Position numbers and translations under genes: made by a program. Shown here one piece after another: positions 42,227-61,589 of a DNA stretch of 64,000 nucleotides (the first letter of the stretch is position 1; each line of letters begins with the position of its first letter). The DNA is from Pirellulaceae bacterium. GTDB lineage: Bacteria > Planctomycetota > Planctomycetia > Pirellulales > Pirellulaceae. The DNA is taken from NCBI GenBank assembly GCA_046153945.1, contig JBJXFF010000201.1:4360-68359 (forward strand), given 5' to 3'. The notes below the pieces were generated by a model that saw only the letters and a list, made by a program, of their open reading frames with translations, was not told the origin of the DNA and did not search any database.

Positions 42227-42400
42227 GGCCTACCCAGTTGTGTTTTCTTTGGAGATGGGCATTATTCCACGGGTAGTGGGCCCGGGAATAGTAGGGCGTG
42301 GTTCCGGCGGATGTGCCCGTTGTGCCGGCGTTTGCCCACGCCGATGACTAAGCCTAGAATCCAGTAGACACCGGTCGACCTGAATTTCTCCGCACTATTG

Positions 42401-42432: not shown

Positions 42433-42488
42433 GAGTTGACTCGCTTCTTCAATTTGCAATCTGACTTCTCCAATCCGCAATTCCCCCC

Positions 42489-44408: not shown

Positions 44409-44440
44409 CCTTATTTCAGTTCAGAATTCCGCCCGCGAAC

Positions 44441-44752
44441 CTACCAGGAAAATCCAGATTCCATCCAACGGATTACCGTAGAATATAGAATCAGCGCTTC
44501 GAGCAACGCCGCTGCTCCCCACAACAAGAATCCCCACCGGCGACAATAGATCAGGGTCGCTGCGCCAATTGGCACAGGAAAGAGAGAGGCGAAAACAATT
44601 GCCCGCCAATTATCCGCTATCACTACAATGAAGAAGGCACCCAATACGATCGCGAGAAAGATCACTCCCGGAAAGTACTTCGAACTACGGCCAGCGGTAT
44701 CCGTCTCCTCGGAGCCCACCTGCCTCGGTGATTCATAGGGGTTTGATTCCAC
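44441..44752 (-). CDS. hypothetical small membrane protein
   Basis: GTG start. N-terminal MESNPYESP, then 3 TM helices. Confidence 0.45.
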   Translation of the reverse strand: MESNPYESPRQVGSEETDTAGRSSKYFPGVIFLAIVLGAFFIVVIADNWRAIVFASLFPVPIGAATLIYCRRWGFLLWGAAALLEALILYSTVIRWMESGFSW

Positions 44753-44774
44753 ATTGCTATTCTAGCGGTCTTCG

Positions 44775-44995
44775 AACCCCAACGGGGTTGCCGAGCGCAG
44801 CCCAGGGTCGCACGCTTCGTGCGCACCCTGGGTAGAATCAATGATCGCAAGCCGAACCCCGAAGGGGTTACCGAATCGGCGGCGTTGGGATTGGTAACCC
44901 CTTTGGGGTTCAGGATCAAACTGGTTGCCATGTTCCCAGGTTGCGCTCGCAAAGCCTCGCGAACCTGGGCTGTACTGGGCAACCCCGTTGGGGTT
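44775..44995. repeat. ~220-bp composite imperfect palindrome built from six REP-like hairpins
   Basis: Four AACCCC-NNN-GGGGTT hairpins (44775, 44855, 44896, 44981). Two CCCAGG(G/T)T...ACC(C/T)TGGG hairpins (44801-32, 44935-69). The outer modules are inverted copies. Symmetry centre is near 44885. Confidence 0.8.
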
Positions 44996-45316
44996 CAAAA
45001 CGGCCTCCATACCATTGTCATCCAGGATTTCATCCGAATGTCCATCACTCACCGTTATCTTATTGGACGCGCTCGCAAAGGGTATCGCCGCATCGCGACT
45101 CCACCATGACACTTCCACTTTTATTGAACTGGACACTTAGTATTTACATGGCCTTTTGTATAATATCGGAAAGGGGCGGAACTCCGTAGGTCTGCTAGGG
45201 AGGGTGTGATCCTTGACAATCGGGTCGAAGTTTATGCGTCAAGGAACCGTTGCACAATTCGTGCGCCGGGAACGCCTGCAGGTGGGACTCCAGCGGCAGC
45301 TTATTGAAACTGAAAT

Positions 45317-45426
45317 GGCCCCACCTAAAAGTGGGCCGTGTTGAAAAACCGGGGAGGTTTATCAACAGATGTTACGGGGACGTGCCGGGGGGGTGTGTTG
45401 CTAAACCCAGGGGGGATTTTCAACAC
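45317..45426 (-). terminator. three tandem hairpins downstream of the giant sensor gene
   Basis: GGCCCCAC/GTGGGCC (45317-37). Two homologous ~31-nt hairpins: GTGTTGAAAAACC..GGTTTATCAACA (45338-68) and GTGTTG..CAACAC (45395-426). On the minus strand the last hairpin is followed by ATTTCAGTTTC. Confidence 0.4.
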
Positions 45427-45489
45427 AAAGGCAAAGGGTGGAGATTCTTGTTGAGACTGACGGGGAGATGTGTCGGCAGCGTAATTGCT

Positions 45490-48400
45490 TCAACGAATAC
45501 CAACTATGCCCGCAGAAAACTGTTGGAGTCGATCGATTTCGCGCTGGAGGATTGAGTAGGCTTCGTCGGCGCCAGAAAGGTCGCCGGCTTTGCCCATGGC
45601 TTCCAGTCGTGATGCCGCCGCTACGGTCGAAGGAGCGGCAAAATAAGCTGCCGCGCCCTTGATCGTATGTGCCATTCGCCGCACCTCGAACATGTTTTGC
45701 TGCTGAAGGGCACTGCGCAGTGACAGCAGGTGCGCTCCAGATTCTTGGAAGAAGATTGCCAACAACTCTCGCAGCATCTCTTCGCTTCCTCCGACCAGAT
45801 TCACGGCAGCCTTCCAGTCCATGGCCGGTTGGCTTGGCGGGGTCTCGAAGGAATCTTGGGGAGAATGTTTCCGACCTTCGATGACTTCGAATAGCAAGGC
45901 TGGTTGGATTGGTTTGGTCAAATAGTCATCCATACCAGCATTCAGACACCGCTCGCGATCTCCTTTGAGCGCGTGAGCCGTCATCGCGACAATCGGAATA
46001 TGGCGGCCGGTCGATAATTCGTGCTGACGAATTGCCTGAGTCGCCTCAAAGCCGTCCATGTCCGGCATCTGGACGTCCATCAGCACGAGATCAAACGCAT
46101 CTCGCAGTGCCGCCTCCACGGCGTCACGTCCGTTGCTGACAACCACAACTTCGTGCCCGCGCTTTTCCAGAAACTCCCGGGCAACCCGTTGGTTGACGAG
46201 CCCGTCTTCGGCCAGCAAGATTCGCAGTGATCGACGGGATTCCGCAACCGGCGGCGACGCCGCCACGGCTGGATCGATCGACTGTTCCCTTGTGCTGAGG
46301 ACCCGGACGATCGCATTGCGCAAATCGGATTGCTTGACCGGTTTGATGAGGTATCGGGCAATTCCCAACTCCTGGCAGCGGGCCGAATTCTCCGTCATCC
46401 CGGCCGAAGAAAGCATGATCAACATGCAGTCTTGCAAATGTGGACGCTGACGAATCCGCTCCGCGAGCATAAAGCCGTCCATGTCCGGCATCATCACGTC
46501 TAAAAGCGCCAGGCGGAAAGGTTCTCCGCGAAGTGCCGCGTCGTCAAGCGCCGCGAGTGCTGCCGGCCCGCTCGCCGCCATGCTCGGCTGCATCCCCCAA
46601 TTCGTGAGCAAATCCTCGAGGATCCGCCGATTGGTCCGATTGTCATCCACCACCAGCACCGGCATGCCCGCCAGGCTCTCGGGGCTAATCCACGAATGCG
46701 TGGGCGAGCCCTGGGCGATTTCAAAGCGGACGGTAAAGTGGAATGCGCTCCCTTTGCCGGGCTCGCTCTCGACCCAGATGTTTCCCCCCATGAGCCGGAC
46801 TAGTTGTTTGGAAATCGTCAGACCCAGACCAGTGCCGCCGAAGCGGCGCGTCGTCGACGAGTCGGCCTGATTAAAGGCTTCAAAAATCTGCTGCTGCTTG
46901 TCTAGGGGAATGCCGATTCCGGTGTCGCTAACGACAAAGTGCAAATCGACGTGCGAATCTTCAAGCTCTTCGACCATGACGACGACGACGATTTCCCCCT
47001 GCTCGGTGAATTTAAGCGCGTTCCCCACCAGGTTGATGACGATTTGACGCAGTCGCCCCGGATCACCGATGAGAGTATCCGGCACATCGGGAGGCACGAG
47101 ATAAGTCAATTCCACACCCTTTTCTGCAGCCCGCAACCCAAAGGTTTGCATGGCATCTCCCAAGCTGTCGCGGAGCGGGAAATCAATGGTTTCCAGTTCC
47201 AGCTTGCCGGCCTCGACCTTGGAGAAGTCGAGAATGTCGTTAAGCAGCCGCAAGAGCGAATCAGCCGACTGCATGACTATGTTCAGATAGTCGCGCTGCT
47301 GATTGGTGAGAGTCGTCTGTAGGGCCAACTCCGCCATTCCCATAACACCATTCATGGGAGTACGGATCTCGTGGCTCATGTTGGCCAGGAAATCGCTCTT
47401 GGCCCGATTGGCATTCTCAGCCACTTCTTTCGCCAGACGCAGTTCGTCCTCGCTGCGGCGCAGCTCGGCTGCTGTCCGTTCCAATTCGGCGTTGGAAACC
47501 GCCAGTTCCCGCGCGCGGGCTTCGGCGGCGGCGGTCCGTTCGGCAACTCGCTGTTCGAGTGTTTCATTCAATCGCTGAAGTTCGGCGAATCCTTCGGCAT
47601 TTTCCAGGGCAGCGCCGGCAATTGTGGCAATGAACTCCGCCAGGCGCACGTCGTCGGCTTTGAATAGACCGCTGACATTGCGATGGTCGACGTAGAAGCA
47701 TCCCGCTGGTTTGCCGCGAACGAACACCGGCGCACAAAGAGCCGAGCGAACGCCGGCGAGCAAGGCTCCGTCTTCGTCGAATTGACCTTCCGAATAAACA
47801 ACGACTTTGCCCGTGGCTAGTGCGCGATCGGCCATGGCCCGACTGTATTCCGCCCGGTGGTCGCCGGCGACCATCGTTAGCTCTTCGGCGGCAGCGTCCC
47901 CCTGCAATTGAAGCAACAAGCAGCGTTCCCCTCGCAACAACCGGAGCGCCGCTTCTCGCACTTCTTTGAAGATGGTATCCCGCGACAATGCCGAGGCAAT
48001 GCGGCGACCCGCATCGAGGACCGTATCAAAACGGTCGACTAAAGAGAGCGTGGCTGTCTTCGCTTGCGCAGCCGGCTCCGGTTCGGCGGCCTCTCCGAGC
48101 GCAAAGTCCGCACCCAGCGCGCGCAGTGCCTGGCGGGCCTTCGTCAAGTCCTTCTGAGCCTCCGGCCAGCCCACCTCCTTGCCGACGCGACCCCGAGCGA
48201 GCAACGTCTGAGCATGCTCGAATCGGGCACCCTGACGTTCCGCCACTGCCAGGCTTTCGTCCAGGTATTGTCTCGCCTTTCGAGTTGAACCCTGCATTGC
48301 CGCGACGAGGCCGGCCTCCCGCAGCGCATGTGGCAAGTCGTTTTGAAACGTCCGAGCGACCTTCAGGGCTTTTCCCACCACCTTGCTGGCTTGTTTCAAC

Positions 48401-51400
48401 AGCGTCTTTCGACGCTCCGGCGCCCAGCCGGAGATCATCTCCGTCTGACGACGCAGGGCAGTAGCGATCCACGAGCGAATGGGCTGGACATAGGCGTTAT
48501 TAACCCCCGCCTTTTCCACAAGCTGTTGCGCGCGCTGAAATGCATCAACCGCGTCTTCAACCTTGTCTCGCAGGAAAAGACACACGCCATCCGCCAACAA
48601 CACTTGAGCGCTTACTTGAACATCCTTGCGAATACGTTGCAGCTCGATTTCGAGAATATCAGCCGGAATCTTGCCCCCCGTCGCCTGTGCCCATACATCC
48701 AAGCTGAACCCGGATGCTTGGGCGTCTCCCAGTTCGACGCCAGAGAAGTGAATCTGCCTGGCCAGATCCTGGCTGGCCTTCAAATCGCCCAGCCGAAACA
48801 GGCTGAGTTCCATATGGACACGCGCAACATTGACCTCCCATAGGTCACCCGCTCGCTCCAGAACTCTTACAGCTTCGCGGCATTTTTCGATGCACTCTTC
48901 AAAGTGGGAGGCTCCGTAAAGAACGACGCCATAGAAATTGAGAGCCTGACCCTGTCCCCACAAATCACCAAGCGACTTGTAGATTGCCAACGACTTCTGT
49001 GCATACACAATTCCCCGGCTGAAATAGGCGACCAAACCCATCACGGGGGCATGAATAGAATAGGCTTGAGCCAGTTCCAAAGTGGGAGGATAGCGCTCGG
49101 CCAGATTCATGCCGCGCAAGTGAGTCCAGAGACAAGGAATTTGACCTCGGCCGAACCAATAGGCATAGGCCAATCGATTGTGCAGACGAATGACGAGGAG
49201 TTGTCTGTCGGCGTCCACAAGTTTCTTGCGGCCCACGAAGAGACCTGGCAGCGCCGAGTGAAGTACCTGGACAAGTGCTTCCCAAAGGAGTAGAACCCAG
49301 AACACGACCGGCCATTTCGGCACCCGCTGGCCGAGCAATTCCAAGGCCCGCTCAATGGCCTCGATGGCCGTTTGCATGTCGCCTTGTTTGAAGGCTAGCT
49401 CCCCGCGCTTGCCCTCGATTTTCCCCTTGGCGACGTCTCCAACGGCTAGTTCTCTGGCCGTCTGGGCAATCTCCGCGGCTTCGTCATAACGGCCGCGAAG
49501 CATTAGCACGTCGCCGAGTCCTTCGGCAATCCGAAAACGGATAGTCTGGTCAGCGGAAGCGCTGCGCTCCGCGATGCGGTACTGCTCTTCAGCAAACTCA
49601 AGGGCATGATGAATTCGGGCATCCTCCGCGGCCGCCAGCGCATACGGCAACGCCCGTTGGCTTTCTCCGGCTGCGTCGAAGTGATAGGCCAGATCATAGA
49701 CCCGATTGGGATCCTCGGCTTCGAGATCAACGGCGGCGCGCAGATGCAATTCTCGACGCTCGGCTTCCGGCAGCCGGGCGAGCAAGGTTTGGCGAAGCTT
49801 GTCGTGAATGAAGGCGCAGCGGTCTCCCGCTGATTTGGACCAGACAATGTGCCGTTGCTGCGCCTCGCGCAGAGCCGCCATCGCCTGCGCCGAAGTCTGC
49901 GCTGCCAGCTTCGACGCTGTGAACAGGTCAAACTCTTTGCCCAAAACCGCTCCGACCGAAAGCAGTTTGATGGTGGTTTCCGGTAACAGTTCAATTCGGC
50001 GGGCGAGGAACGCGGCGGCGTGACGCGAAGACTGCACATCGGCCAGGGCCATAGGCTCTACTTGCCAGCCCCTCTGTATTGGCACCAAAGCGCCGGACTC
50101 CACAAGTCCGCGCAAAGCAGCCGCCGCCATGAACGGGCTTCCCTCCGCCAGTCGCTCGATGACTCCGACCGCCTCATCCGGCAATGGCCCGGCCATCGAC
50201 TCCACAAGTTTGCGGACACTGGAAGGGTGAAACGCGGGAAGCTTCAAATGCTCAGAGGAGGTCAGCTCTCGCAAGGGATGGCTGGAATGGACCTCTTCCG
50301 AACGAAAGGCAGCGATTAAGAGAATGGGACACTCCCCGGATCTGGAACGGCGCTGCCAATTACTGAGAACCTTGAGCGTTAATTGGTCCGCCCATTGGCA
50401 GTCATCCAGCAGCACGAGCGCGGGACGACCGGTGGAACCGAGCGCATCCAGCAGCGAGGTCAACGCTTGAACGCTTCGTGCTTCGGCAAAGGATTCGGGA
50501 CCGAGCGGCGCATTCGCGCACGAGCCAAAAAGCGCTGCCAATTCCGGCAGCGCGGAACATGCTGCTTCCAGTTGATCAGCCAGTCCAATTCTAAGTTTCT
50601 CTTCCACGCCCGGCTCGAGTCGTGCCGTTGTGACCACTGCTTCTGCCACGCCGGTCAAAAGTTGAAACGGAAGTTGAGTGGCCTTGTCGAGGCCATGCCC
50701 GCGCAAGATCCAAGCCCCCTGCTGGGCCCCGCGCTGCGCAAATTCCGCGAGCAGCCGGCTCTTGCCGCCGCCAGACTCGGCTTCCAACAGGACCAGACCG
50801 GGCTGGCCGGATTGTGCGAGTTCTAACTGGGAGTGGAGCGCCTTCAATTCCTGCCCGCGACCGACGAACGCTGGTTCGGTCAGCGTGCGCCTGCGATCAT
50901 TCAAGCCGACAACCAGGGCCGGCTCGGACTCACCTCGCTGCAAGGCCTCGGCGATCACCGCCAGATCGGTGATCACCGCCTCCGCGGATTGATAGCGGTC
51001 GCGCGGATCCTTGCGCAACAGTCGCTGAATGACTTCGTCCAGAACTCGCGGCACAGGCAAACCCAAGCCGCGCAATTCGGGCGGTGGCAACGTCATGTGC
51101 TGCCGCAGAATTTCTCCGACACTATTTCCTTGAAACGGAGGCCGGCCGGCGAGAGACTCAAAGAGCACAATGCCGACCGCATACAGATCGGAACATGCCG
51201 TGACCTCCTGGTCGAGCAGGCCTGCTCCTTCGGGAGACAGATATTGCGCGGCATCTGCCCAATTCTCTCGAATGTTCGCCTCCAGGTCCGCCGTGCGAGT
51301 CAGGCCAAAGTCAACAAGCGTGACTTCACGCACCGGGCCTTCGGCATTGACAATTACATTGGCTGGCTTGACGTTGCGGTGCAGCACGTCTTTGGCATGG

Positions 51401-51792
51401 GCTGCCCGCAGGGCGGTCAGCAGGGAGCGGCCAACCAGCAGCGAGTCCAATACGGAGAGAGGTTTTTGCCGCAATCGCTCCCGCAATGAGATACCGGGAG
51501 TGAAGCGCATGACTCGGTAGAATTGATCTGCTTCCGAGGCGAAGTCAAGCAACGGAGCCGATTCCCCAATCTTGATTTGCGAGAGAATCTGGGCTTCATG
51601 CTCCACCCGCATGCGCACCGAGGCGGAGAAAGAAGACATCGCCACCGACTTGATCACGACCGTTGCATCTCGGGTAAGATCCGACGCCAGCACCGTTTCC
51701 GCACCATCGGCCTCCTTCAGTTGGCGCAGAACCCGGTAGCGGCCGCCGATTAGTCGCCCGTCCGCGGACAAACTCGTGTGGGCATCGGTCAT
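45490..51792 (-). CDS. multidomain sensor: degenerate Ser/Thr kinase - P-loop NTPase (AAA_16/STAND-like) - TPR-like - GAF - hybrid histidine kinase - REC - REC - HPt
   Basis: Start ATG 51792 with GAGGTG upstream. Walker [11 protein letters not shown] and Walker [11 protein letters not shown]-box [17 protein letters not shown] and [10 protein letters not shown]. Two receivers ([22 protein letters not shown]). HPt motif [11 protein letters not shown]. Confidence 0.9.
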
Positions 51793-51878
51793 GCCCACCT
51801 CTTGGCGGTTTGCGTCTGTGTTTCCTGGAACATTGCAATACCTCGAACAACGAACTGTTGGTCCGACTCCGTGGACAT

Positions 51879-54800
51879 CTACACAACAACCTGGCCCTCG
51901 GCAAATTGCTGGAAATGGATCGCGATACCCTGCAGAATAGCGGTGATCCGTTCGCGGTTGCGATTCAGGAACCAATGATCTCCGTCAAATTCAATGAGTT
52001 CGAAGCCGCCGTCCGTGTGCTGGGCCCACTCCTGGATTTCATCGCGGTAGACCATATCATCCTGCCTGGCGGCAAAGGCTGTAATGGGGCAATTCAATGG
52101 CGTGTTGGGGTGATACCGGTAGCCCCTCAGCAGCGGATAGTCTCGTCGCATCAGCGGCAAGATGGACTTGATGAATTCCGGATCGTCCACATAGCGCGAA
52201 AGCGAAATCAGATACTCTGGGCTATTATCGGCAATCATCGCCTTAAGCAGCGTGTCTCGCTTCTGTAGAAGGTGAACTAAATGAGGCGGCAGTGTCCCCG
52301 AGACTACATAGTGAGCAGGCTCTTTGTGGTGGCTCTCGCGCAAGCGGCGAATGACTTCACTCGCCACGATACCCCCGTAACTATGGCCCCAAATCACCAC
52401 GGGGCGATCGAACAGCGGCAACAGTTGCGGAACGATGAGTTCGACCAATTGTTCCAGGCTTTCCACCACCGGCTCGCCCATTCGATTTTCGCGCCCGGGT
52501 GTTTGGATGGCGAGAATGTCGCAGTCCTCCGGCGGATTGAGCAGGAAACCCGTGAACAGGGAAGCACCGACTCCCATGGAATGAAAACAAATTAACCGAT
52601 ACGAGGAGTTCTCGGCTCCGCGCCCGCGAATCAGCCAAGGGTTCAGGATTTGAACTCCCTCCAAATCCGCGAGTGTAAATGTAGGTGAACCAACTGAAGT
52701 ACGCTGGCGGGTAGCGATGTCGGAAGTTCCGCTGCTCTCTAGTTGCGAGAGAAGGTCCGCCGCCAAAGTGGAGATGCTTGGCCCCTTGAGCAGCTTGATA
52801 AGCGGCACGTTAATGTCCAGCAATCGTGTAATCCACACCTGCAGATCCGTAAGCATCAAAGAATCCAGACCGAGGTTGTCAATCGATGCGTCCGCGTCGA
52901 GCTTTTCCGGAAGTGTATCCAGAATTCTGGCCAGTTTTTCCGACAATTCCTGTTGCAATCGCTCTTGCTGTTGTCCAGGCTCCAATTCCAGGAGGGCACT
53001 GCGCAGGCTGGAATTTCGGGGACGGTTGCTTCGAGAAAGAGCCGCATCGCTCAAATGGTCAACAAACCGCGCATCTCGAAGCAGGTGAGGATACGCGGTG
53101 CGGAAGCGACCCCAGTCGAATCGCGACGTCATCCGCTGGGTGGCTTGCTGAATCAGGGCGGCTTCGATTTTTCCCAGCACGTCGGCCAGCGGCATGACGA
53201 GCATGCCCTGACTTGCGAGCAATCCGATAATGTCTTGAACGTCGTTCTCGGCTTTGGACATCCCCGCGTAGGACCCCAAAACGCCAAGATTGACGGAGGT
53301 TGCGGGGAGCCCTTGTTGGCGGCGAAATTCGGCCAGGGAATCTTGAAAGTAGTTGGCGGCGGCATAGTTCAACTGTCCAACCAGGCCAAGCACCGACGAA
53401 ATGGAAGAGAGCATGAGGAAGAAGTCGAGGTCTACTCCAGCCGCAAGGGCCGCCGCGTGCAAATTCCAGGCACCTTGCGCCTTGGGGCCGAATACCCGCT
53501 GGAAACGGGCCATGTCCATCTTCGGTAGGGAAGCGTCGTCGAGTAGGGCTGCGCCATGGACGACGCCGGCCAAGGGGGGCAACTCGACCCGGATGCGCTC
53601 GATGAGTCGGTCAATCGCGCTGCGATCGGCAACGTCCCCATGCGCCAATAGAATTTGAACTCCTTGAGACTGCATGCTCTCCACGGCCACCCGATCTGCA
53701 TCACTCTTCGGGCCGCTGCGGCTGAGCAACACCAAGTGGCGCGCTCCGCGGTCGGCCATCCACTTCGCGACCTCCAGACCAAAACCGCTCGCACCTCCGG
53801 AAATCAAATAGCAACGATCAGAACGAAAGGCGGCGCTCTGCGGTGGCAACGTCCGAACTCGCTCCTCTTCCATGTTCATCACGATCTTGCCGTGATAAGC
53901 CGCCCGGGTCATGAATTTCATGGCCTCGGGAAGTTTGGAAATCGGAAACTCGGTGATTTCATGCGGAGCAAGTTCGCCCCTTTCGAATAGGGCAACCACC
54001 TCCGTCATTACGCGCCGATGCAACTCCGGCCTTTGCATCGCTAGCCGGTCGACATCGACAACAAAGTAAGAAACGTTGTCCCCAAGCCGTTCCAGACTCA
54101 GTTTGCTATTGCGATAGATATCCGACTTGCCTAGCTCGACAAAACGGCCGAACGGTGCGAGGCACTTCAGGCTTTGGGTGATGAAGCGGCCCGTCAGGGA
54201 ATTCAGAACAACGTCCACGCCGCATCCGCCCGTAACTTCCCTGACATGATTGTAAAAGTCGAGGGAACGTGAGTCGAACACATGCTCGACTCCACTTTGA
54301 CGCAGGAAAGCCCGCTTTTCCTTGGTCCCCGCCGTGACAATCACCTTCGCGCCGGCCCGCTGCGCCAATTGAATCGCCGCGCCCCCAACCCCGCCAGCGG
54401 CAGAATGAATCAGAACCGTTTCCCCGCACTGCAGGCGCGCCAGATGGCATAGCGAATACCAGGCCGTGATGTAAACGACGGGAATTGCCGCCGCCTGTGA
54501 CGGCGTTAACTGCTTTGGTTTGTGCGCCACACAATGGCCCGGAGTAGTAACCCGCCCGCTAAAGCCGTCGGCAACGCGGGCGATCACTTCATCGCCCACC
54601 TGAACATGCCGAACCAGTTGGCCCGTATTCAGGACACGGCCCGCGACTTCCAATCCCAGGCGGTCGCATGCCAGCCCGCCAGAGACGGCACTTGCCGGCA
54701 GCAGGCCCATCGCATTCATGACATCTTTGAAGTTCAAGGCGGCTGCCTGAACGGCTATTTCCACGTCGTTCACCCCCAGTTGTGCCAGTGGAGTCCGACG

Positions 54801-57800
54801 GAAGACGATTTGATCGAGGGCACCCGGCACACTCACATCGGCTCGATAAGCGCCGCCAACTCCCGCTTCCTCGGAGGTTGCCATCTCCTCGGCACTTTCC
54901 CGATCCACGGCAATCAACTGCCTGACAAACCGCTTTGCACCGCGAATCGCGATTTCCGATTCGTCTTGATCACGGCGGATGTAGAGCAACTCTCCCACCA
55001 GCGCGTCCAGCTCTTCCAGGGAGCTTGATGCGTTCAGGTCAATCACCGTGAGCGGAATATTAGGACATTCGTTGTTGATGACGCGTGCCATGCCGTGCAG
55101 AATCGCTTGTCCTAAGTCGAGTTGCCAGTCGCCCGAGACGCCGGCCGCACTGCTGGTGACGACACACAGGCGAGATACTCCTTCGCGCTTGTGCAATGTT
55201 TGAGCCAGATGCATGAGCGACGGGACATAGGGACAGTGGTCAAGTCCATTCCAGGCAGGATCGACCATGGTCAGCCCTGATGCGAAAACAATCAGCGTGC
55301 GCCGGTCGAGCGCCACGTCGGCAAGCAATTCGTCGAACGATCTTTGTGGACTGATCCGAAAAACTCGCGGTCGAATCCCTTCTGCAGTCAGCCTCATCAC
55401 AAGTTCGTCCACCTGAGCCGACGGGTCGGCGATCAGCACAGCATTGGTATAGTCATTGATTCGGAGGTGCAACTCAGCATCGCGAGGTGCCGGCAACCAG
55501 CGGTATTCGTAACAACCTTCGTACAATGCGTCCGACTGATGCGAACCTGCTCCCATCAGCCGTTTACAGGTCAAACCGAGTACCTCGGCCACCAGTTCGC
55601 CGGCCTCATCAAAGAGTAAAGTATCCGAACAGAGATACTCTTTGTCGTTGCGGGTGGCACGAACGTAGCACCAGACACTTTGCGTGGGCCGGCGGTGGAA
55701 CCTGACCCGCTCAATGCGGTACGGCAAGTAGATTCGATCCGGTTCGCCGTTGCGATGGACATCGGCGAACACAACATGCAAGCAGGCGTCGAGAAGCGCC
55801 GGGTGAACGGCCAAGGGCTGCGATTCAGGGACCAAATCATCTGATAGCCGCACTCGGGCGAGCATTTCATGCTCCTGGTGCCACAGTTCCTGAATGCAAC
55901 GAAACTTCTCTCCATACCCCAGCCCCGCGGCTGCAATCGTCGCGTAAAACGGCTCGACGGGGAGCACATCAGCAGCCCGAAATTGCTGTCGAATCTCGTC
56001 GAGCGAAGCGGCTGATTTTTCAAAGCGGTCATGCACCGTGTTGATGCGGCCCGTGGAGTGCTTCGACCATGGCGATTCCGGCAGTGCGTCGGCAGGCCGG
56101 GTGCAGATGGCATAGTCCCCTTCCCCGGAAACAATTTCGAGCCTCACTTCGAGCGGGTGACGGCTGTTTGCGGGAAGAATCAACGGGGAATCGAAATGGA
56201 GGTTCTCCAGGAACACCGACTCATGGCGAAATTGCTCGCTGGCCACGGCCCAGGCCAATTCCAGGTGTCCGGTCGCTGGGAAGACAATCTCGCCGTCGAC
56301 TTGATGATCGCGGAGATACGGGAACTTTTGCGGGTCGAGCGTCGCTTCCCAGACGGCCAAGCCATTTTCGGTGACCATTTGCGTTTGACGCTTCAGGAAC
56401 GGATGCTCGAAGCGCCCCCGGCGCAGTTCCGCCGCCGCGGGGGCTTCAAACCAATGCCGGCTGTGCTGCCAGGCATAGGTGGGCAACCGGACATAGCGCC
56501 TGCCGGAACCAAACATCAACTCGGTGTTTGGCTGCAGCCCGCGCGCCGCAAGTTGCGCCAGGCTTTGGAGGAACACGGTCACTTCCTCTTCCCGCCGGGT
56601 CATGGAGGGAGCAATCATCGCATCGGCATCGAGTTTCTTGAACAGAGCCTCGGAGCCGCTGACCAGCACGGGATGAGGGCCGATTTCGACAAACGTATCA
56701 AAGTTGTGCTGCAACATCGTTCCCAGTGCGCTGGTAAACAGCACCGGCAGCCGTGCATTCCGATACCAATAATCAGGTCCCAGGTGCCTGCCGCTTTCGC
56801 ATTGGCCGGTGACGGTCGAATACAGCGGCGTGAATGTCTCGACCCCCTGAATATCGTCGAGCGCCTCGCGCATCATCTCCTTGATCGGCTCCATGTGATG
56901 GCTGTGATACGCCACCTGAACCCGAACCGGTCGGTTGAAGACACCGCGACCTTCCAGCATCCTGGCAATCTGCTCCAGCGGCTCCGGGTCGCCGGACAAG
57001 GTGAGCATTTCTGGACCATTGACCGCGCCGATCGAAACCCGGCCTTCATAGCCCTTGATGAGTGCGCGAGCTTCTTCCAGTTCCAGGCCAACCGCCAGCA
57101 TGGCCCCTTTGCCGGAAGCGAGATTCTGGGCCTGGGAACGATGGAAAATTACCTGGACCGCCTGCTCGAGCGTTAATGCTCCGGCAGCGTAGCCGGCGGC
57201 GACCTCGCCAATCGAGTGACCCACGAATCCATCGGGCCGGATTCCGTAATGCTCGTAGAGCTTTACGAGTGCGATTTGGATGGCCATGACCGCGGGCTGG
57301 ACCACGACCGTGTCGTGAATCCTGGAGTCTTGCTCATCCTTCTGAAGTTCCACAAGCAGCGACCAGCCGGCGAGCCTTTGAAATGCCGCATCGATCTCTT
57401 CCATCCAGTGGCGGAAGACGGGTTCTTGCTGCATCAATTGCCGCCCCATTCCCGCCCACTGTCCTCCCTGGCCCGAAAAGACGAACGCCAGCTTCGGCCT
57501 TTTCTTCTTGGTGATCGTCCTCGTCAGGGTTGCGGAATCGACTTGCCCGTCGGAATACTTCCGCAGCCTTTCCTCGATGTCCTTAGAGGACTCACCAACA
57601 ATCGCGAGCAGATGCGGATAGTGGCTGCGCCGAGTGAAGGCTGAAAAGGCGATGTCCTCAAGCCGCTGCTCAGTGCTGCTCAAGAAGTCCGCATGCCGCA
57701 GCGCAAGTGTCCTTAAGGAATCGCGATGAGCCGCACTGAGGACATAGAGCTTCTCGCTTTTGGAAACTTCCCCCTTGGTCGCTGCATGTCCACTTTCTCC

Positions 57801-59219
57801 AGAACTCGCCGAAGACAACGATTGCAACACCACATGGGCGTTTGTCCCTCCCGCTCCGAATGAATTCACACCTACGTTCCAAGGGCGGCCGGTCGAGGGA
57901 AGTGGCGTGGGGCTGGTGGGAACCTCCAGATGGCTGTTGTCCCAATCGATTTCTGGATTCGGTTCATGGAAGTGCAGGTTCGGCGGGACAATGCCGTGCT
58001 GAGCGGTCAAAGCGGCCTTAATGAAACTGGCAATCCCCGAGGCACCTTCCAAGTGCCCCAAGTTCGTCTTCACCGAGCCCATCAAGCACCGCTCACCCTC
58101 CGCGCGATTGCGGCCGAGGACGGCACCCAAAGAGAGGCTTTCGACGGGGTCCCCTACGCGGGTCCCCGTGCCGTGGGCTTCGACGAAATTCACAGTAAGT
58201 GGATCGATTTCCGCGTCGGCATAGACCGCTTCCAAAAGCTCAATCTGCGAAACGACGTTGGGGACTGTGAATCCCTCGGGCAGATAGCCATCCTGATTCA
58301 CGGCCGAGCCGCGCACCACGGCGTAGATCGCGTCTCCATCGGCCAGCGCTTTGCTGAGCGGCTTGAGAATGACCACTCCCGCTCCTTCGCCGCGAACATA
58401 ACCATTGGCGGAGGCGTCAAAAGCTTTGCAATACTGATCCGGATTCAAAAAGCCGGCCTTGGACAACATCATGGACGATTCCGGCCTGAGCATCACGCTG
58501 ACGCCGCCGGCAATCGCCAGGTCCGCTTCCCCCCCCCACAGGCTGCGACAAGCCAGGTGGACCGCCACCAGCGAGCTGGAGCAAGCCGTATCGACCGTAA
58601 TGCTGGGACCTTTCAGATTGAAGTCGTAGGAGATGCGGTTCGCCAGCGGCGAAACGGCGGTTCCCATGGCCACATACGGATTGATCTCGTCGCGCTGCTC
58701 GCTGGCGGTCTGCATGCAGAGATAGTCGTACATGAATGACCCGACGAAGACGGACGTCCGCGTGCCGTCGAGCTGGTCACGCCGCAAGCCGGCATCTTCC
58801 ATCGCTTCATGAGTCACTTCCAGAAGCAAGCGCTGCTGCGGGTCGATCCGCTGGGCTTCGGTCGGAAAGTACCCAAAGAACTCGGCATCGAACATGTCGA
58901 CGCCGTCGATGAAGCCGCCCTTGGCGTTCCGAATGTAGCCTGATTTTTCCGGGTTGGTGTCGTGAAATCGCGAGTGTTTCCAGCGATTCTCCGGCACGCT
59001 CCGGATGGCATTGATCCCGCGGAGCAAAGCGTCCCAGAAAACCGGGGGCGAATTGAGCCCGCCAGGAAGTCGGCAGCCGATGCCGATGACAGCCAGGGGT
59101 TCGCGCTGCGGGGAATTCAAGGGAGGATCTAAATTCCGCGGAGCAAGACTTGATGGCAAGGGAGACTCCTCGCGGATTTTTGGGACAACGAGTGAACCTC
59201 GTTCAATCGCCTTGGGCAC
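51879..59219 (-). CDS. single-module fully reducing type I polyketide/fatty-acid synthase, KS-AT-DH-(psiKR)-ER-KR-ACP-TE
   Basis: GTG start with GGGGAGG 4 nt upstream. DTACSSS, EAHGTGT and NLGH (KS). GHSIGE (AT). [10 protein letters not shown] (DH). [13 protein letters not shown] (ER). ISGGASGFG and NYAAAN (KR). LGLDSL (ACP). GHSYGG and GDH (TE). Confidence 0.95.
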
Positions 59220-59307
59220 GCAACCTCCCCACCGTCCGTGGCTCTACAAAATTATCAAGAATCAGCCGAAAGGAGGGGAGATAATCGGACTTCCCTGGGA
59301 GAAGTCT

Positions 59308-59338
59308 ATCGTATCATCCCAAGTGCCGATTGCAATCG
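59308..59338 (-). promoter_or_regulatory. sigma70-like promoter candidate with overlapping 12-bp palindrome upstream of the PKS
   Basis: Minus strand reads TTGCAA (59330-35), 16 nt, TACGAT (59308-13). The perfect palindrome CGATTGCAATCG (59327-38) overlaps the -35 hexamer. Confidence 0.3.
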
Positions 59339-59441
59339 CAACTTGTTTTGCCATCTCGGTGCAAGGATGACACAGGCTACTGATGAAGTAGAAACAGGTT
59401 TGGAGGCCCAAAGAACCGAGTCGGAATAGACCGCCATACAC

Positions 59442-59582
59442 CTATTTCTCGCAGCAGGTCGCATAGGAGCAGCAGACCATCTCGCAGCAGCCGTGGTCCT
59501 TGCCGAATGGCGAAGAGATGCAGCAGGGGCTGCTGTTAGGCGCGATGATGCCAATAACCGGGATCGCGGCTGGAATGCGCAA
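59442..59582 (-). CDS. candidate Cys-rich micro-ORF (46 aa from TTG, or 12 aa from ATG 59480)
   Basis: The frame reads ...IIAPNSSPCCISSPFGKDHGCCEMVCCSYATCCEK*. Four TGCTGC hexamers are all in one frame, and GC3 is very high. There is no ATG for the long form, and it overlaps the parE 3' end. Confidence 0.3.
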   Translation of the reverse strand: MRIPAAIPVIGIIAPNSSPCCISSPFGKDHGCCEMVCCSYATCCEK

Positions 59583-59829
59583 GTGCGGCGATCATAATCT
59601 TGTCGGGCAAGATACGGTATAAGATGCTATCGGGATATCGGCGCAAATTGTAGTAGCGGTGGCGTTTATCCCCGATGGGAAACGATTCGGGTGCTGCTTC
59701 GATCCTTTGCAATGCGACTTCCACGGCGGCTTCAAATCCGGCAGCCGCCTGCGGACTCCGCTGGAGATACCAATTCAAGGCATCCGTATAGTCTTCTTCG
59801 GCACCACCAAGAAACAATGCTTCAGCCAC
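59536..59829 (-). CDS. parE: type II toxin, RelE/ParE family
   Basis: 97 aa. AEEDYTDALNWY...PESFPIG...YRILPDKIMIAALAHSSRDP matches the ParE pattern. GTG start overlaps the antitoxin gene by 8 nt. Confidence 0.8.
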   Translation of the reverse strand: MAEALFLGGAEEDYTDALNWYLQRSPQAAAGFEAAVEVALQRIEAAPESFPIGDKRHRYYNLRRYPDSILYRILPDKIMIAALAHSSRDPGYWHHRA

Positions 59830-60061
59830 GGAGTTTGGCTCCCTGGCGCGCTCGCTCCTTCACTTCTTGCCAAGGTCGAGCCGAAGCGGCACCGGCATCG
59901 TATTCCATGCTGCGGCGCTCCGCCTCAGCCAGCCAGGCGTCGTCAAACGGACGCACACGCCGTTCGTCGAGCACCGAAACAAGCGCGGCCGCGAATGCCA
60001 ATTGTTCGTCTTCGGGAAGGGCAAGAGCAGTCTTCAAGAGTTCATCGGCAGCTTGTGACAT
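59822..60061 (-). CDS. addiction-module antitoxin (TIGR02574-like)
   Basis: 79 aa. LLKTALALPEDEQLAFAAALVSVLD...DDAWLAEAERRSMEYDAG is the typical pattern of this antitoxin family. Confidence 0.8.
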   Translation of the reverse strand: MSQAADELLKTALALPEDEQLAFAAALVSVLDERRVRPFDDAWLAEAERRSMEYDAGAASARPWQEVKERARQGAKLRG

Positions 60062-60134
60062 GACGTTACTCCGTACTTCAAGTATAGCATTCGCCCTCGG
60101 TACGGCGATTCGGCTGGGTCCGATGGGAGTTTAC

Positions 60135-61589
60135 TCAAGCCTTGTAATTCCACTCCCGAATATCGACAAAGTGCCCGGCGACCGCGGCTGCCGCGGCCAT
60201 GGCGGGGGAGACGAGGTGGGTGCGGCCGTTTTTGCCTTGGCGGCCTTCGAAGTTGCGGTTGCTGGTGCTGGCGCAGCGCTCGCCGGGCTCCAGTTTGTCA
60301 GGATTCATTGCCAGGCACATGCTGCAGCCCGCCTCGCGCCATTCGAAGCCGGCTTCCTTGAAGATTTTATCGAGCCCCTCGGCTTCGGCTTCCTTCTTCA
60401 CCTGTCCACTGCCGGGGACGACCATCGCGCTGACGTGACCGGAAACCTTGTGCCCCTTCACGACGGCGGCGGCGGCCCGCAGATCGGCAATTCGTCCATT
60501 CGTGCAAGAGCCGATGAAGACGCGGTTGACGTCCACGCTCGTCAGCGGAACTCCCGGAGTGAGCCCCATATATTCGAGCGCCCGCTCCGCCGTTTTGCGG
60601 TCGCTTTCGTCGGTGATTTCGCTCGGATTGGGGACCTTGGCGGTCACCGGCGCGACCTGGCCGGGATTGGTTCCCCAGGTGACCTGCGGCGAAATATCGG
60701 CAGCTTTGAAGACGAGGGACTTGTCGTACTTCGCGCCGGCGTCCGTCGGCAGTTCCTTCCAGCGAGCGACGGCTTTGTCGAAGTCGGCCCCCTTGGGGGC
60801 GAATTCTCGTCCCTTCACGTAGTCGTAAGTTGTTTGGTCGGGGGCAATCATGCCGGCCCGCGCGCCCGCTTCGATGGTCATGTTGCAGACGGTCATTCGC
60901 TCTTCCATCGTCAGGCCGCGAACCGCCTCACCCGTGTATTCAATGACATAGCCGGTGCCGCCGTCGGTGGTGATCTGGCCGATGAGGTACAGAATCAAGT
61001 CCTTGGCCGTGACGCCGCGGGGGAGCTTGCCTTCCACCCGCAGTTCCATCGTCTTGGGCAAATGCTGGAGCAAAGTTTGAGTGGCCAGCACATGTTCGAC
61101 TTCGCTGGTGCCGATGCCGAAGGCGAGCGCGCCGAAGGCTCCGTGCGTGGCGGTGTGGCTGTCGCCGCAGACGATGGTCATCCCCGGCTGCGTAAGGCCG
61201 AGTTCCGGGCCGATGACGTGGACAATCCCCTGCTGGATGCTGTCCATGTCGTAGAGCTTGATGCCGAACTCCTTGCAGTTGTTCCGGAGCGTCTGCACCT
61301 GTTGCAGCGAGATCGGGTCGGTGATCGGCAGGCTCCGGTCGGTCGTCGGAATGTTGTGGTCCGGCGTCGCCACCGTCAGCCCCGGCCGCCGCACCTTTCG
61401 CCCCGCCAGCCGCAGCCCCTCAAAGGCCTGGGCACTCGTCACTTCGTGGACGAGCTGCAAATCGATATACAGCACCGTCGGCTTGCCGGCGGGAGCGTCA
61501 ACAACATGGGCGTCCCAGATCTTCTGGAACATCGTGCGGGGGGAAGCAGGCATGAGAATAGCGTCGGTCAGAGGCGGGGAACGGCTCAT
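60135..61589 (-). CDS. leuC: 3-isopropylmalate dehydratase large subunit
   Basis: [32 protein letters not shown] and [10 protein letters not shown] Fe-S cluster ligand motifs. The likely true start is ATG 61532 ([11 protein letters not shown]). Confidence 0.95.

What the first reader, a model, noticed from the sequence alone, without database searches (positions are those of the whole stretch)
45490..60061. Candidate coupled system: TA module - (Cys-rich micro-ORF) - FAS-like PKS - giant pseudokinase/NTPase/GAF phosphorelay sensor
All genes are on the minus strand. The PKS stop and the sensor ATG are 86 nt apart. That gap has a GAGGTG ribosome-binding site and no terminator-like hairpin. A stack of hairpins appears only after the sensor (45317-45426). 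The block is bounded by a ParE/antitoxin pair on one side and a large REP palindrome on the other. A megasynthase co-transcribed with one self-contained sensory phosphorelay carrying a small-molecule-binding GAF domain suggests a feedback or signalling circuit. In that circuit a lipid or polyketide product is sensed by, or made under control of, the adjacent protein. I know of no described system with this composition.
Basis: inference. Interest (0 to 1): 0.7.

Follow-up and report, generated by a model that had tools for sequence, protein, structure and literature searches.

The report
Conserved megasynthase–sensor gene pair in planctomycetes
A fatty-acid-synthase-like polyketide synthase and a 2100-residue cytoplasmic signalling protein sit side by side here and in more than twenty other planctomycete assemblies whose surrounding genes all differ, which points to an undescribed lipid-linked signalling unit, while the neighbouring toxin-antitoxin pair and tiny Cys-rich ORF are not part of it.

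Summary
The sequence facts hold. A 2446-aa KS-AT-DH-ER-KR-ACP-TE synthase (59219-51879, minus strand) is followed after 86 nt by a 2100-aa protein (51792-45490). That protein reads degenerate kinase, STAND NTPase, TPR, GAF, HisKA/HATPase, REC, REC, Hpt. The gap has a GAGGTG site and no terminator-like hairpin.

The coupling idea is supported for these two genes only. In 32 loci found with the synthase, the sensor family is the only conserved neighbour. Of 18 loci with enough downstream sequence, 13 have a recognisable sensor orthologue on the same strand. Five of five sensor homologues at 59% identity or more have the synthase just upstream, and three of three at 57% or less do not. Roseimaritima ulvae carries two tandem pairs. 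Some genomes insert a third gene, a catalytically canonical kinase-STAND-TPR paralogue.

The ParE/antitoxin pair has no counterpart in the related loci, and no other flanking gene is shared. The Cys-rich micro-ORF has no support as a gene.

Both proteins are of known kinds (MAS/FAS-like iterative PKS; HstK-like kinase/His-kinase fusion with a MalT-type STAND core). I found no description of the pairing. The most likely mechanism, which is inferred, is that the STAND/TPR/GAF input reads the synthase's acyl product or state and drives a His-Asp-His phosphorelay to an unlinked regulator. Interest is moderate to high.

The parts
51879..59219 (-). Iterative, fully reducing type I PKS (FAS/MAS-like), 2446 aa from GTG 59219. 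NCBI's call for the identical protein is 2413 aa, which corresponds to TTG 59120.
   Evidence: Pfam gives KS, AT, DH, ER, KR, ACP and TE. The best PDB match is mycocerosic acid synthase 9d2z, E=1e-293, over residues 40-1984. All catalytic motifs are conserved in 110 family members. P0121 is the 100% identical protein.
57966..59102 (-). KS domain (aa 40-418; DTACSSS, EAHGTGT, NLGHLE)
56538..57485 (-). AT domain (aa 579-894; GHSIGE; specificity motif VAYHSHHM, with an aromatic residue where methylmalonyl-specific ATs have Ser)
   Evidence: The reading of the specificity motif rests on established knowledge of the HAFH/YASH motifs.
55554..56405 (-). DH domain (aa 939-1222; [10 protein letters not shown])
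53880..54770 (-). ER domain (aa 1484-1780)
53277..53810 (-). KR domain (aa 1804-1981; YAAANYF)
52758..52949 (-). ACP (aa 2091-2154; LGLDSLM)
51939..52598 (-). C-terminal thioesterase (aa 2208-2427; GHSYGG, GDHWF)
51793..51878 (-). 86-nt PKS-sensor junction with GAGGTG (51801-51796). No terminator-like or promoter-like site.
   Evidence: Seven of the eight directly adjacent pairs (this window and seven related loci) also have no terminator-like site in the gap.
45490..51792 (-). Cytoplasmic multidomain sensor, 2100 aa, ATG 51792
   Evidence: It is identical to P0001, named 'MAG: response regulator [Pirellulaceae bacterium]'.
50923..51759 (-). Degenerate Ser/Thr kinase domain (aa 12-290): HRNVKPAN in place of HRD. 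The Gly-rich loop is replaced by [12 protein letters not shown]. The beta3 Lys and DFG are kept.
49723..50868 (-). STAND NTPase core (AAA_16; aa about 309-690). Walker A ESGGGKS and Walker [12 protein letters not shown] are near-invariant in the family.
   Evidence: The AF2 model has pLDDT 86.9. The Foldseek top hit is the STAND-TPR protein 6mfv, E=1e-12, with Apaf-1 also matched.
48088..49722 (-). All-helical TPR-like sensor arm (aa about 690-1235)
47599..47988 (-). GAF domain (aa 1269-1398)
   Evidence: It is strongly conserved in the family.
46720..47403 (-). HisKA + HATPase_c transmitter (aa 1464-1691; [11 protein letters not shown]-box, DTGIGI, GGTGLGL)
45880..46659 (-). Two receiver domains (aa about 1712-1826 and 1858-1971), both with the phospho-acceptor Asp (DVMMPDMDG / DVQMPDMDG)
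45520..45768 (-). Hpt domain (aa 2009-2091; HTIKG)
45300..45430 (-). Three consecutive hairpins 60-190 nt after the sensor stop. They are a candidate transcript end.
   Evidence: I5. The support is weak: z=-1.96 and no canonical U-tract.

Best explanation
The real unit is two genes.

**The synthase.** The first gene encodes an iterative, fully reducing, FAS/MAS-like type I PKS. It has its own acyltransferase, ACP and thioesterase. No tailoring, loading or PPTase gene is conserved next to it. On its own it should therefore build and release a saturated, probably malonyl-derived, fatty acyl product.

**The sensor.** The second gene encodes a soluble 2100-aa signalling protein. It has a MalT-type STAND NTPase core with a TPR arm and a GAF domain as input. 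A degenerate kinase domain sits at the N-terminus. The output is a complete HisKA/HATPase, REC, REC, Hpt phosphorelay.

**Proposed mechanism.**
1. In this genome the two genes are transcribed together from upstream of the PKS.
2. The acyl product, an intermediate or the loaded synthase itself is recognised by the TPR/GAF input.
3. As in other STAND proteins, ligand binding permits nucleotide exchange and oligomerisation. This brings the His-kinase dimerisation domains together and starts autophosphorylation.
4. The phosphoryl group passes through REC and Hpt to a response regulator encoded elsewhere.
5. The degenerate kinase domain acts as a docking or allosteric module. In genomes with the third gene it would pair with the catalytically canonical kinase-STAND-TPR paralogue.

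**Shown:** gene content, intact catalytic and phosphorelay motifs, the STAND fold, and the exclusive, deep conservation of the pair as a unit.

**Inferred:** co-transcription, the ligand, the direction of information flow and the activation mechanism.
For: **Synteny from the PKS side.**
- The scan found 32 loci, of which 28 are 66-77% identical to the window PKS.
- Of the 18 loci with at least about 2.5 kb downstream, 13 have a recognisable sensor orthologue on the same strand (L001, L003, L004, L008, L009, L012, L014, L016, L017, L020, L021, L029, L030). Twelve align at 58-77% identity over the full length or up to the contig end. In L020 only the first about 116 residues are on the contig.
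- Two more loci (L006, L018) have the paralogue and then the contig ends. L019 has only a fragmented paralogue.
- Clustering of all ORFs shows the sensor family as the only neighbour shared by more than four loci.

**Synteny from the sensor side.** P0077, P0080, P0045, P0067 and P0064 (59-71% identity) all have the PKS immediately upstream. P0078, P0091 and P0115 (52-57%) do not.

**Contig-length matches.** 24 sensor clusters and PKS clusters have identical longest-contig lengths.

**The pair moves as a unit.**
- R. ulvae has PKS-sensor-PKS-sensor in tandem.
- Pair 1 is orthologous to the Roseimaritima sp. pair (82% PKS, 78% sensor) but only 66% and 54% identical to pair 2.
- PKS and sensor distance matrices correlate (r=0.83, Mantel p=2e-4).

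**Clade specificity.** More distant PKS homologues (46-52% identity, outside the planctomycete clade) lack the sensor.

**Junction.** The gap is 86 nt with an RBS and no terminator. Gaps of 0-317 nt occur in the eight directly adjacent pairs, seven without a terminator-like site.

**Catalytic competence.** PKS motifs are conserved. Walker A/B are near-invariant while the kinase G-loop is degenerate in the whole clade and the catalytic Asp is variably lost. H-box, receiver Asp and Hpt His are present.

**STAND fold.** AF2 model pLDDT 86.9; top PDB hit 6mfv STAND+TPR; Apaf-1 also matched.
Against: - There are no expression, ligand or interaction data.
- Three PKS orthologues (L002, L011, L015) have no sensor within 3.5-8 kb downstream.
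- In six loci the sensor cannot be co-transcribed with the PKS, because a reverse-strand paralogue lies between them.
- No response regulator, Hpt or His kinase partner is encoded elsewhere in the window, so the output is unknown.
- No conserved DNA motif was found upstream of the PKS in 26 loci.
- The mirror-tree correlation is partly expected from shared species phylogeny.
- Regulators next to biosynthetic genes more often control the genes than sense their products.
Confidence: 0.5

Rival explanations
1. The sensor is a cluster-situated regulator. Its STAND/TPR/GAF input reads an unrelated physiological cue such as nutrient state, a nucleotide or a redox signal. The phosphorelay then switches PKS transcription on or off through an unlinked response regulator. 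In function this is a LAL/SARP-type pathway regulator with a two-component output in place of a DNA-binding domain.
For: AAA_16 plus TPR is the same module as in LAL regulators, which are pathway-specific regulators in actinomycete PKS clusters (PMC3282765, PMC5015266). The adjacency is tight and exclusive. GAF domains bind many small metabolites (established knowledge).
Against: The protein has no DNA-binding domain and no response regulator is nearby. The sensor lies downstream of its presumed target and probably in the same transcript, which fits an autoregulatory loop better than an upstream master switch. No conserved operator-like motif lies upstream of the PKS.
Confidence: 0.27
2. The control is post-translational or by scaffolding. 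The degenerate kinase/TPR part binds the megasynthase directly, through its ACP, TE or dimer interface. It either gates synthase activity or reports synthase load. Where present, the active kinase-STAND paralogue phosphorylates the PKS or the sensor, as mycobacterial Ser/Thr kinases do with FAS-II and PKS enzymes.
For: TPR arrays are protein-binding modules, and the structural hits include LGN/Pins and APC TPR subunits. A paralogue with a canonical GxGxxG/VALK/HRD/DFG kinase is inserted between the two genes in 8 loci. Degenerate kinase domains commonly act as partners of active kinases (established knowledge). Mycobacterium PknK has the same kinase + AAA_16 + MalT-like layout and controls the lipid-modifying mymA operon (PMC4601284; the details are from my own knowledge).
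Against: No fused PKS-sensor protein was seen among the top 120 hits of either search. This window has no active-kinase paralogue next to the pair, yet it keeps the pair. A full HK-REC-REC-Hpt output implies signalling beyond the synthase.
Confidence: 0.15
3. The adjacency has no functional meaning. The two large genes are simply inherited together.
For: Three PKS orthologues lack the sensor downstream. Kinase-STAND-HK proteins are numerous in planctomycetes, and many homologues are not PKS-linked.
Against: All other synteny has decayed at 58-77% protein identity, yet the pair persists across at least three families. It is duplicated as a unit in R. ulvae and tolerates insertions between the genes without separating. 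There is a sharp identity threshold between PKS-linked and unlinked sensor homologues.
Confidence: 0.05
4. One reading: the ParE/antitoxin pair and the Cys-rich micro-ORF belong to the same system as the PKS and sensor.
For: They share a strand and lie within 320 nt upstream of the PKS.
Against: tblastn with ParE and the antitoxin found no counterpart in any of the 32 PKS loci, and no upstream gene family is shared by more than four loci. The TA pair has its own 8-nt overlapping two-gene layout, typical of mobile addiction modules. The micro-ORF has no Pfam hit for the overlapping ORFs and no other support as a gene. PADLOC gave only generic kinase-domain matches for the sensor and nothing for the TA pair or the PKS.
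Confidence: 0.03

Closest known systems
Mycocerosic acid synthase (MAS) / Pks2-type iterative fully reducing PKSs of mycobacteria
   Same: One polypeptide with KS-AT-DH-(psiKR)-ER-KR-ACP that acts iteratively to make a saturated acyl chain. It is the best solved-structure match (9d2z, E=1e-293, one continuous alignment over aa 40-1984). The best full-length NCBIfam alignment is Pks2.
   Different: This PKS scores below the NCBIfam cut-offs (1191 against 2400 bits). It carries a C-terminal thioesterase that MAS lacks. Its AT motif is VAYH, not the methylmalonyl-type YASH. No FadD-type loader or acyltransferase partner is conserved nearby.
Animal type I fatty acid synthase and Dictyostelium PKS16
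   Same: KS-(M)AT-DH-ER-KR-ACP-TE order with an integrated TE and an xA[F/Y]HS AT motif. There are strong PDB matches (2vz8, 8vf7, 9nju).
   Different: The segment between DH and ER is short (about 260 aa), so there is no room for a pseudo-methyltransferase. The protein is bacterial and clade-specific, and presumably exists alongside a type II FAS, which I did not check.
HstK-type dual kinases ('multi-sensor signal transduction multi-kinase') of cyanobacteria, and fungal group X hybrid His kinases
   Same: An N-terminal Ser/Thr-kinase-like domain, a P-loop NTPase, GAF and a C-terminal His kinase in one cytoplasmic protein. The HstK family is reviewed in PMC1262709 and PMC2176072. The fungal comparison is from my own knowledge.
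   Different: Here the kinase domain is degenerate (no G-loop across the clade; HRN in this protein). The output is extended to REC-REC-Hpt. The gene is locked to a PKS gene. To my knowledge and by my searches, no HstK-type protein has been tied to a biosynthetic enzyme.
LAL (large ATP-binding LuxR-family) regulators of PKS clusters, and MalT
   Same: An AAA_16/STAND NTPase with a TPR-like sensor arm, encoded next to PKS genes. The expected activation is ligand- and ATP-dependent oligomerisation.
   Different: There is no LuxR helix-turn-helix. The output is a phosphorelay and the N-terminus carries a kinase-like domain.
RpfF/RpfC (DSF) fatty-acid signalling of Xanthomonas
   Same: A fatty-acid-signal synthase gene lies next to a hybrid HK-REC-Hpt sensor. 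UniRef even labels the R. ulvae orthologue 'Sensory/regulatory protein RpfC'. An unlinked homologue sits near Hpt and a REC-HD-GYP regulator, which is an RpfG-like output.
   Different: The synthase is a 2446-aa PKS, not a crotonase. The sensor has no membrane domain and uses STAND/TPR/GAF input. The 'RpfC' name reflects only the transmitter part.
Mycobacterium tuberculosis PknK
   Same: A kinase + AAA_16 + MalT-like helical region, linked to regulation of lipid-modifying genes (details from my own knowledge). It is the closest analogue of the 1.3-kaa paralogue found between PKS and sensor in 8 loci.
   Different: PknK has an active kinase and no GAF or His kinase part, and it is not adjacent to a PKS.

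Membership tests
Iterative fully reducing type I PKS (MAS-like) | Single module KS-AT-DH-ER-KR-ACP in this order | tested here: met
   Pfam domain order. Continuous alignment to MAS 9d2z over aa 40-1984.
Iterative fully reducing type I PKS (MAS-like) | Catalytic residues of every domain intact | tested here: met
   [26 protein letters not shown], HxxxGxxxxP, GGVG, YAAAN, DSL and GHSYGG/GDH are conserved in 110 homologues.
Iterative fully reducing type I PKS (MAS-like) | Methylmalonyl-specific AT (YASH motif), as in MAS and Pks2 | tested here: not met
   The motif is VAYHSHHM, with an aromatic residue at the Ser position, closer to HAFH and the FAS MAFHS motif. It also scores below the NCBIfam Pks2 cut-off.
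Iterative fully reducing type I PKS (MAS-like) | Iterative chain extension giving a saturated acyl product | not testable with these tools
   Needs heterologous expression or lipidomics.
STAND NTPase, MalT clade | P-loop NTPase with Walker A and hhhhDD Walker B | tested here: met
   ESGGGK[ST] and LLDDCQWAD are near-invariant in 120 homologues.
STAND NTPase, MalT clade | NBD-helical-winged-helix core followed by a repeat sensor arm | tested here: met
   AF2 model pLDDT 86.9. Foldseek top hit is the 6mfv STAND+TPR protein at E=1e-12, and the Apaf-1 NOD is also matched.
STAND NTPase, MalT clade | Ligand-induced nucleotide exchange and oligomerisation | not testable with these tools
   Biochemistry is required.
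Hybrid histidine kinase phosphorelay (BarA/TorS/ArcB type) | H-box His, N/G1/G2 boxes, receiver Asp and Hpt His all present | tested here: met
   [32 protein letters not shown] / DVQMPDMDG and HTIKG. The best NCBIfam matches are BarA and TorS, both below cut-off.
Hybrid histidine kinase phosphorelay (BarA/TorS/ArcB type) | Membrane-anchored periplasmic or TM input | tested here: not met
   No membrane or periplasmic sensor domain was found. About 1450 aa of cytoplasmic kinase-like/STAND/TPR/GAF precede the transmitter.
Hybrid histidine kinase phosphorelay (BarA/TorS/ArcB type) | Cognate response regulator identified | tested here: not met
   No other REC, Hpt or HK coding sequence lies in the 64-kb window, and none is conserved in the related loci.
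HstK-type Ser/Thr kinase-His kinase fusions | N-terminal Pkinase domain and C-terminal HisKA/HATPase in one protein | tested here: met
   Pfam.
HstK-type Ser/Thr kinase-His kinase fusions | Catalytically competent Ser/Thr kinase (GxGxxG, VAIK Lys, HRD, DFG) | tested here: not met
   The G-loop is [12 protein letters not shown] and the catalytic loop is HRN. The G-loop is degenerate in the whole PKS-linked clade, and the catalytic Asp is replaced in a minority of homologues.
LAL regulators | AAA_16 + TPR-like region | tested here: met
LAL regulators | C-terminal LuxR-type HTH | tested here: not met
   No HTH domain was found in Pfam or NCBIfam scans.
Type II toxin-antitoxin (ParE family); neighbour, not part of the unit | Small antitoxin gene overlapping a ParE-fold toxin gene | tested here: met
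   Unstab_antitox at E=5e-10 and ParE_toxin at E=2e-7, with an 8-nt overlap.
Type II toxin-antitoxin (ParE family); neighbour, not part of the unit | Conserved association with the PKS-sensor pair | tested here: not met
   No tblastn hit for either TA protein in the 32 PKS loci.
Anti-phage STAND (Avs-like) defence | Match to a defence-system model beyond a generic domain | tested here: not met
   PADLOC hits are limited to the kinase domain (PD-T4-6, mad6, MkoA; aa 8-307). There were none for the STAND/TPR part or for the PKS.

The most novel reading that the evidence does not exclude
The pair is a dedicated intracellular, or membrane-permeant, lipid-signal circuit of a kind not yet described. 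A whole FAS-like megasynthase would serve only to make a signalling acyl molecule. A cognate STAND/GAF His kinase would read that molecule by ligand-induced oligomerisation. Cognate synthase-receptor pairs would diversify and duplicate together, as in R. ulvae, much like quorum-sensing synthase/receptor pairs.
Probability: 0.25. Interest if true: 0.8.

Novelty: new variant of a known kind. Interest (0 to 1): 0.58.

Why it matters
- **An orphan synthase gets a functional handle.** Monomodular type I PKSs are among the commonest biosynthetic genes counted in planctomycete genomes, and none has a known product or role (PMC12673574). A sensor locked to this PKS gives a route into its function.
- **STAND proteins and two-component signalling.** If the sensor reads the PKS product, this would show that STAND NTPases can drive two-component phosphorelays. 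It would also show that bacteria use FAS-like megasynthases as signal generators.
- **It is experimentally accessible.** The pair occurs, twice, in the cultured and fully sequenced Roseimaritima ulvae, so knockouts, lipidomics and phosphotransfer assays are feasible.
- **A system for pseudokinase-kinase pairing.** The optional third gene, an active kinase-STAND paralogue, offers a natural case of pseudokinase-kinase pairing in bacteria.

Tried and rejected
1. **Source contig.** An exact-sequence look-up of the window's sensor found nothing on record. The homology search later found the identical protein, P0001.
2. **Metagenome scan with the sensor.** This was wasted. The pattern DVMMPDMD matches receiver domains in general, so all 80 loci were unrelated hybrid kinases that matched only aa 1400-2100.
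3. **Shared regulatory DNA upstream of the PKS.** In 26 loci no k-mer of 8-12 nt occurred in more than 6 sequences, so there is no operator candidate.
4. **Rfam on 44000-61000.** No RNA family matched.
5. **Sigma-70 promoter scan.** Nothing appeared near either start. This says little, because planctomycete promoters are poorly defined.
6. **Defence-system reading (STAND next to TA).** PADLOC gave only generic kinase-domain hits. Rejected.
7. **Sequence search of the STAND/TPR region against the PDB.** Only designed or generic TPR proteins matched. The fold comparison was needed to see the STAND relationship.
8. **Extension beyond Planctomycetota.** Three PKS homologues at 46-52% identity lack the sensor. 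A 51% homologue from an uncultured low-GC bacterium (L022) has a convergent TPR-GAF-HK gene cut by the contig end, which is suggestive only.
9. **Literature.** None returned a paper describing a PKS paired with a kinase/STAND/His-kinase gene.


Full report
**1. What is in the sequence**

The region holds two very large minus-strand ORFs.
- The first runs 59219-51879. It is 2446 aa from a GTG. NCBI's call for the identical protein, P0121, is 2413 aa, which corresponds to a TTG at 59120.
- The second runs 51792-45490 and is 2100 aa from an ATG. It is identical to P0001, named 'MAG: response regulator [Pirellulaceae bacterium]'.

The PKS stop (TAG, 51881-51879) and the sensor ATG (51792) are 86 nt apart. 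GAGGTG lies 4 nt before the ATG. The consensus scan found no terminator-like or promoter-like site in the gap. The gap folds no better than shuffled sequence (z = +0.9).

Three hairpins follow the sensor stop at about 45300-45430. They lack U-tracts and the region's z-score is only -1.96. Further downstream, at 44771-44999, lies a cluster of REP-like palindromes.

Upstream of the PKS is an Unstab_antitox/ParE pair (60061-59822 and 59829-59536) with an 8-nt overlap. The sequence is there (MVCCSYATCCEK, or 46 aa from a TTG inside ParE). It comes from CTGCTGC-rich DNA and nothing marks it as a gene. GC content of the block matches its flanks.

**2. What the two proteins are**

*The synthase.* Its domains are KS-AT-DH-ER-KR-ACP-TE.
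- The best solved relative is mycocerosic acid synthase: 9d2z, E = 1e-293, one continuous alignment over aa 40-1984.
- Dictyostelium PKS16 and animal FAS follow.
- The best full-length NCBIfam alignment is mycobacterial Pks2, well below its cut-off.
- All catalytic motifs are present and conserved in 110 homologues.
- The AT specificity motif is VAYHSHHM. It has an aromatic residue where methylmalonyl-specific ATs have Ser. It resembles the HAFH and FAS-type motifs, so a malonyl extender is likely. This last step is an inference from established knowledge.

It is therefore a self-sufficient, iterative, fully reducing FAS-like PKS with a releasing thioesterase.

*The sensor.* Its domains are Pkinase, AAA_16, TPR, GAF, HisKA, HATPase_c, REC, REC, Hpt.
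- The kinase domain has HRN instead of HRD and no Gly-rich loop.
- Across 120 homologues the Gly-rich loop is degenerate throughout. The catalytic Asp is kept in a majority but replaced by N, A, H or S in others.
- Walker A (GGGK[ST]) and Walker B (LLDDCQWAD) are near-invariant.
- An AlphaFold2 model of aa 290-1260, built on a 59-sequence alignment, has mean pLDDT 86.9.
- Its best PDB match is the STAND-plus-TPR protein 6mfv (E = 1e-12). Apaf-1 also matches over the nucleotide-binding core.
- The H-box, G-boxes, both receiver Asp residues and the Hpt His are present.
- No membrane or DNA-binding domain was found.

**3. Is the pair more than neighbours?**

*From the PKS side.* A genome-collection scan gave 32 loci, 28 of them planctomycete loci at 66-77% identity.
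- tblastn with the sensor found a recognisable orthologue downstream on the same strand in 13 loci. Twelve align at 58-77% identity over the full length or up to the contig end. In L020 only the first about 116 residues are on the contig.
- These 13 are among the 18 loci that have at least about 2.5 kb of downstream sequence.
- Gaps are 0-317 nt in the eight directly adjacent pairs, which include this window. Seven of those eight have no terminator-like site in the gap.
- In eight loci a 1.3-kaa paralogue lies between the PKS and the sensor position, on either strand. It has a zinc ribbon, a canonical GxGxxG/VALK/HRD/DFG kinase, STAND and TPR, but no GAF or His kinase.
- L019 has only fragments of that paralogue and no full sensor.
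- Three loci (L002, L011, L015) have no sensor within 3.5-8 kb.
- When all ORFs of all loci are clustered, the sensor family is the only neighbour shared by more than four loci.
- The TA pair has no tblastn counterpart in any locus, and none of the window's other flanking ORFs shares a cluster with another locus.

*From the sensor side.*

| Sensor homologue | Identity to window sensor | PKS immediately upstream? |
|---|---|---|
| P0045 | 71% | yes |
| P0064 | 65% | yes |
| P0067 | 62% | yes |
| P0080 | 60% | yes |
| P0077 | 59% | yes |
| P0078 | 57% | no |
| P0091 | 52% | no |
| P0115 | 52% | no |

As indirect support, 24 sensor clusters and PKS clusters have the same longest-contig length to the base.

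*The pair as a unit.*
- The cultured Roseimaritima ulvae carries PKS-sensor-PKS-sensor in tandem.
- Its first pair is orthologous to the pair of a Roseimaritima MAG (82% and 78% identity). It is only 66% and 54% identical to its own second pair.
- PKS and sensor distance matrices correlate (r = 0.83, Mantel p = 2e-4). Shared species phylogeny contributes to that figure.
- PKS homologues at 46-52% identity outside the clade lack the sensor.

It is clearly not met. The two genes behave as a selected unit within class Planctomycetia.

**4. How it most likely works**

*Shown:*
- a catalytically intact, stand-alone fatty-acyl synthase;
- an intact STAND NTPase, GAF domain and His-Asp-His relay;
- a degenerate kinase domain;
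- exclusive, deep conservation of adjacency;
- a junction compatible with one transcript.

*Inferred:*
- The acyl product, an intermediate or the loaded synthase is the ligand of the TPR/GAF input.
- STAND-type oligomerisation brings the His-kinase dimerisation domains together.
- The signal then leaves through Hpt to an unlinked response regulator.

No other REC, Hpt or HK coding sequence exists in the 64-kb window. Two contextual hints came from related loci. A stand-alone Hpt lies beside one PKS-linked sensor. An Hpt plus a REC-HD-GYP regulator lies near an unlinked homologue.

I prefer product sensing to plain regulation for two reasons. The sensor lies downstream in the probable operon, which is the usual layout of synthase-receptor autoregulatory pairs. 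The protein also has no DNA-binding output. The alternative remains serious: a LAL-like pathway regulator responding to another cue, with a phosphorelay replacing the LuxR domain. So does direct protein-level control of the synthase through the TPR or degenerate kinase domain, helped by the active-kinase paralogue. Chance adjacency and the five-part system with TA and micro-ORF are disfavoured.

**5. Comparison with what is known**

- The synthase works like MAS, Pks2 and animal FAS. It is not a member of the MAS/Pks2 equivalogs: it scores below cut-off, has a non-YASH AT and carries an added TE.
- The sensor belongs to the broad HstK-like class of Ser/Thr-kinase/His-kinase fusions (PMC1262709, PMC2176072). 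It has a MalT-clade STAND core like LAL regulators of PKS clusters (PMC3282765, PMC5015266).
- It fails the defining features of each narrower family: it has no active kinase, no LuxR HTH and no membrane input.
- The functional analogy to RpfF/RpfC is only an analogy.
- Reviews of planctomycete secondary metabolism list monomodular type I PKSs without products or regulators (PMC12673574, PMC4982196). No search returned the pairing.

**6. Verdict**

The finding is real and narrower than proposed. It is a conserved two-gene, sometimes three-gene, module. The parts are of known kinds, and the combination has not been described in anything I could find. I rate it a new variant of a known kind, with moderately high interest (0.58). 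Confidence is about 0.85 that the two genes are functionally coupled, and 0.5 for the full product- or state-sensing statement given as the best explanation.

Noticed in passing
window 44771-44999: Four AACCCCNNNGGGGTT hairpins (0 expected by chance) sit inside larger 41-nt inverted repeats. They occur only here in the 64-kb window. The site is the 1.08-kb non-coding stretch between the sensor and a convergent acyl-CoA dehydrogenase gene. They look like a REP/MITE-like element.
   Followed up: partly
L017:12051-16037 (also L006, L008, L014, L018, L019, L020, L021): A 1.3-kaa paralogue of the sensor's N-terminal 1240 aa has a zinc ribbon and a fully canonical Ser/Thr kinase, but no GAF or His kinase. 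It is inserted between PKS and sensor on either strand in 8 of the related loci. It is absent from this window.
   Followed up: partly
L115 and L113 (Roseimaritima ulvae CP042914 / LWSJ01000044): There is a tandem PKS-sensor-PKS-sensor array. The first sensor lacks Hpt and the second has it. The two pairs are old paralogues, or were acquired separately, rather than recent duplicates.
   Followed up: partly
L123:17366-19688 (Catalinimonas alkaloidigena): A 46%-identical PKS of the same architecture in a Bacteroidota genome is followed by a PPTase and a 468-aa GAF-only protein. This may be an independent PKS-GAF association.
   Followed up: no
L022:11482-13638: A 51%-identical PKS from an uncultured low-GC bacterium has a convergent gene ending in TPR-GAF-His kinase, cut by the contig end. 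The association may extend beyond Planctomycetota.
   Followed up: no
L120:4541-6073 and L118:16402-16857: Stand-alone Hpt genes lie near sensor homologues. In L120 the Hpt is followed by a REC-HD-GYP regulator and a GGDEF protein, which hints at a c-di-GMP output for this sensor family.
   Followed up: no
window 38573-44408: Genes just beyond the sensor encode an aldehyde dehydrogenase, an AMP-binding acyl-activating enzyme (40517-42226, minus strand) and an acyl-CoA dehydrogenase (42489-44408, plus strand). These are lipid-metabolism genes that could act on a PKS product. They are not conserved next to the pair elsewhere.
   Followed up: partly
window 61699-63441 and 1012-3516: Two further Ser/Thr kinase genes lie in the window. 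Each is about 30% identical to the sensor's kinase-like domain, and the former has no AAA_16 domain. They are not related to the pair.
   Followed up: no
L124:1-2331: In one MAG the PKS-sensor pair is preceded by a His kinase, a REC-HTH_8 regulator, a sigma-70 factor and a STAS protein. This is a possible local regulatory context that was not seen in other loci.
   Followed up: no
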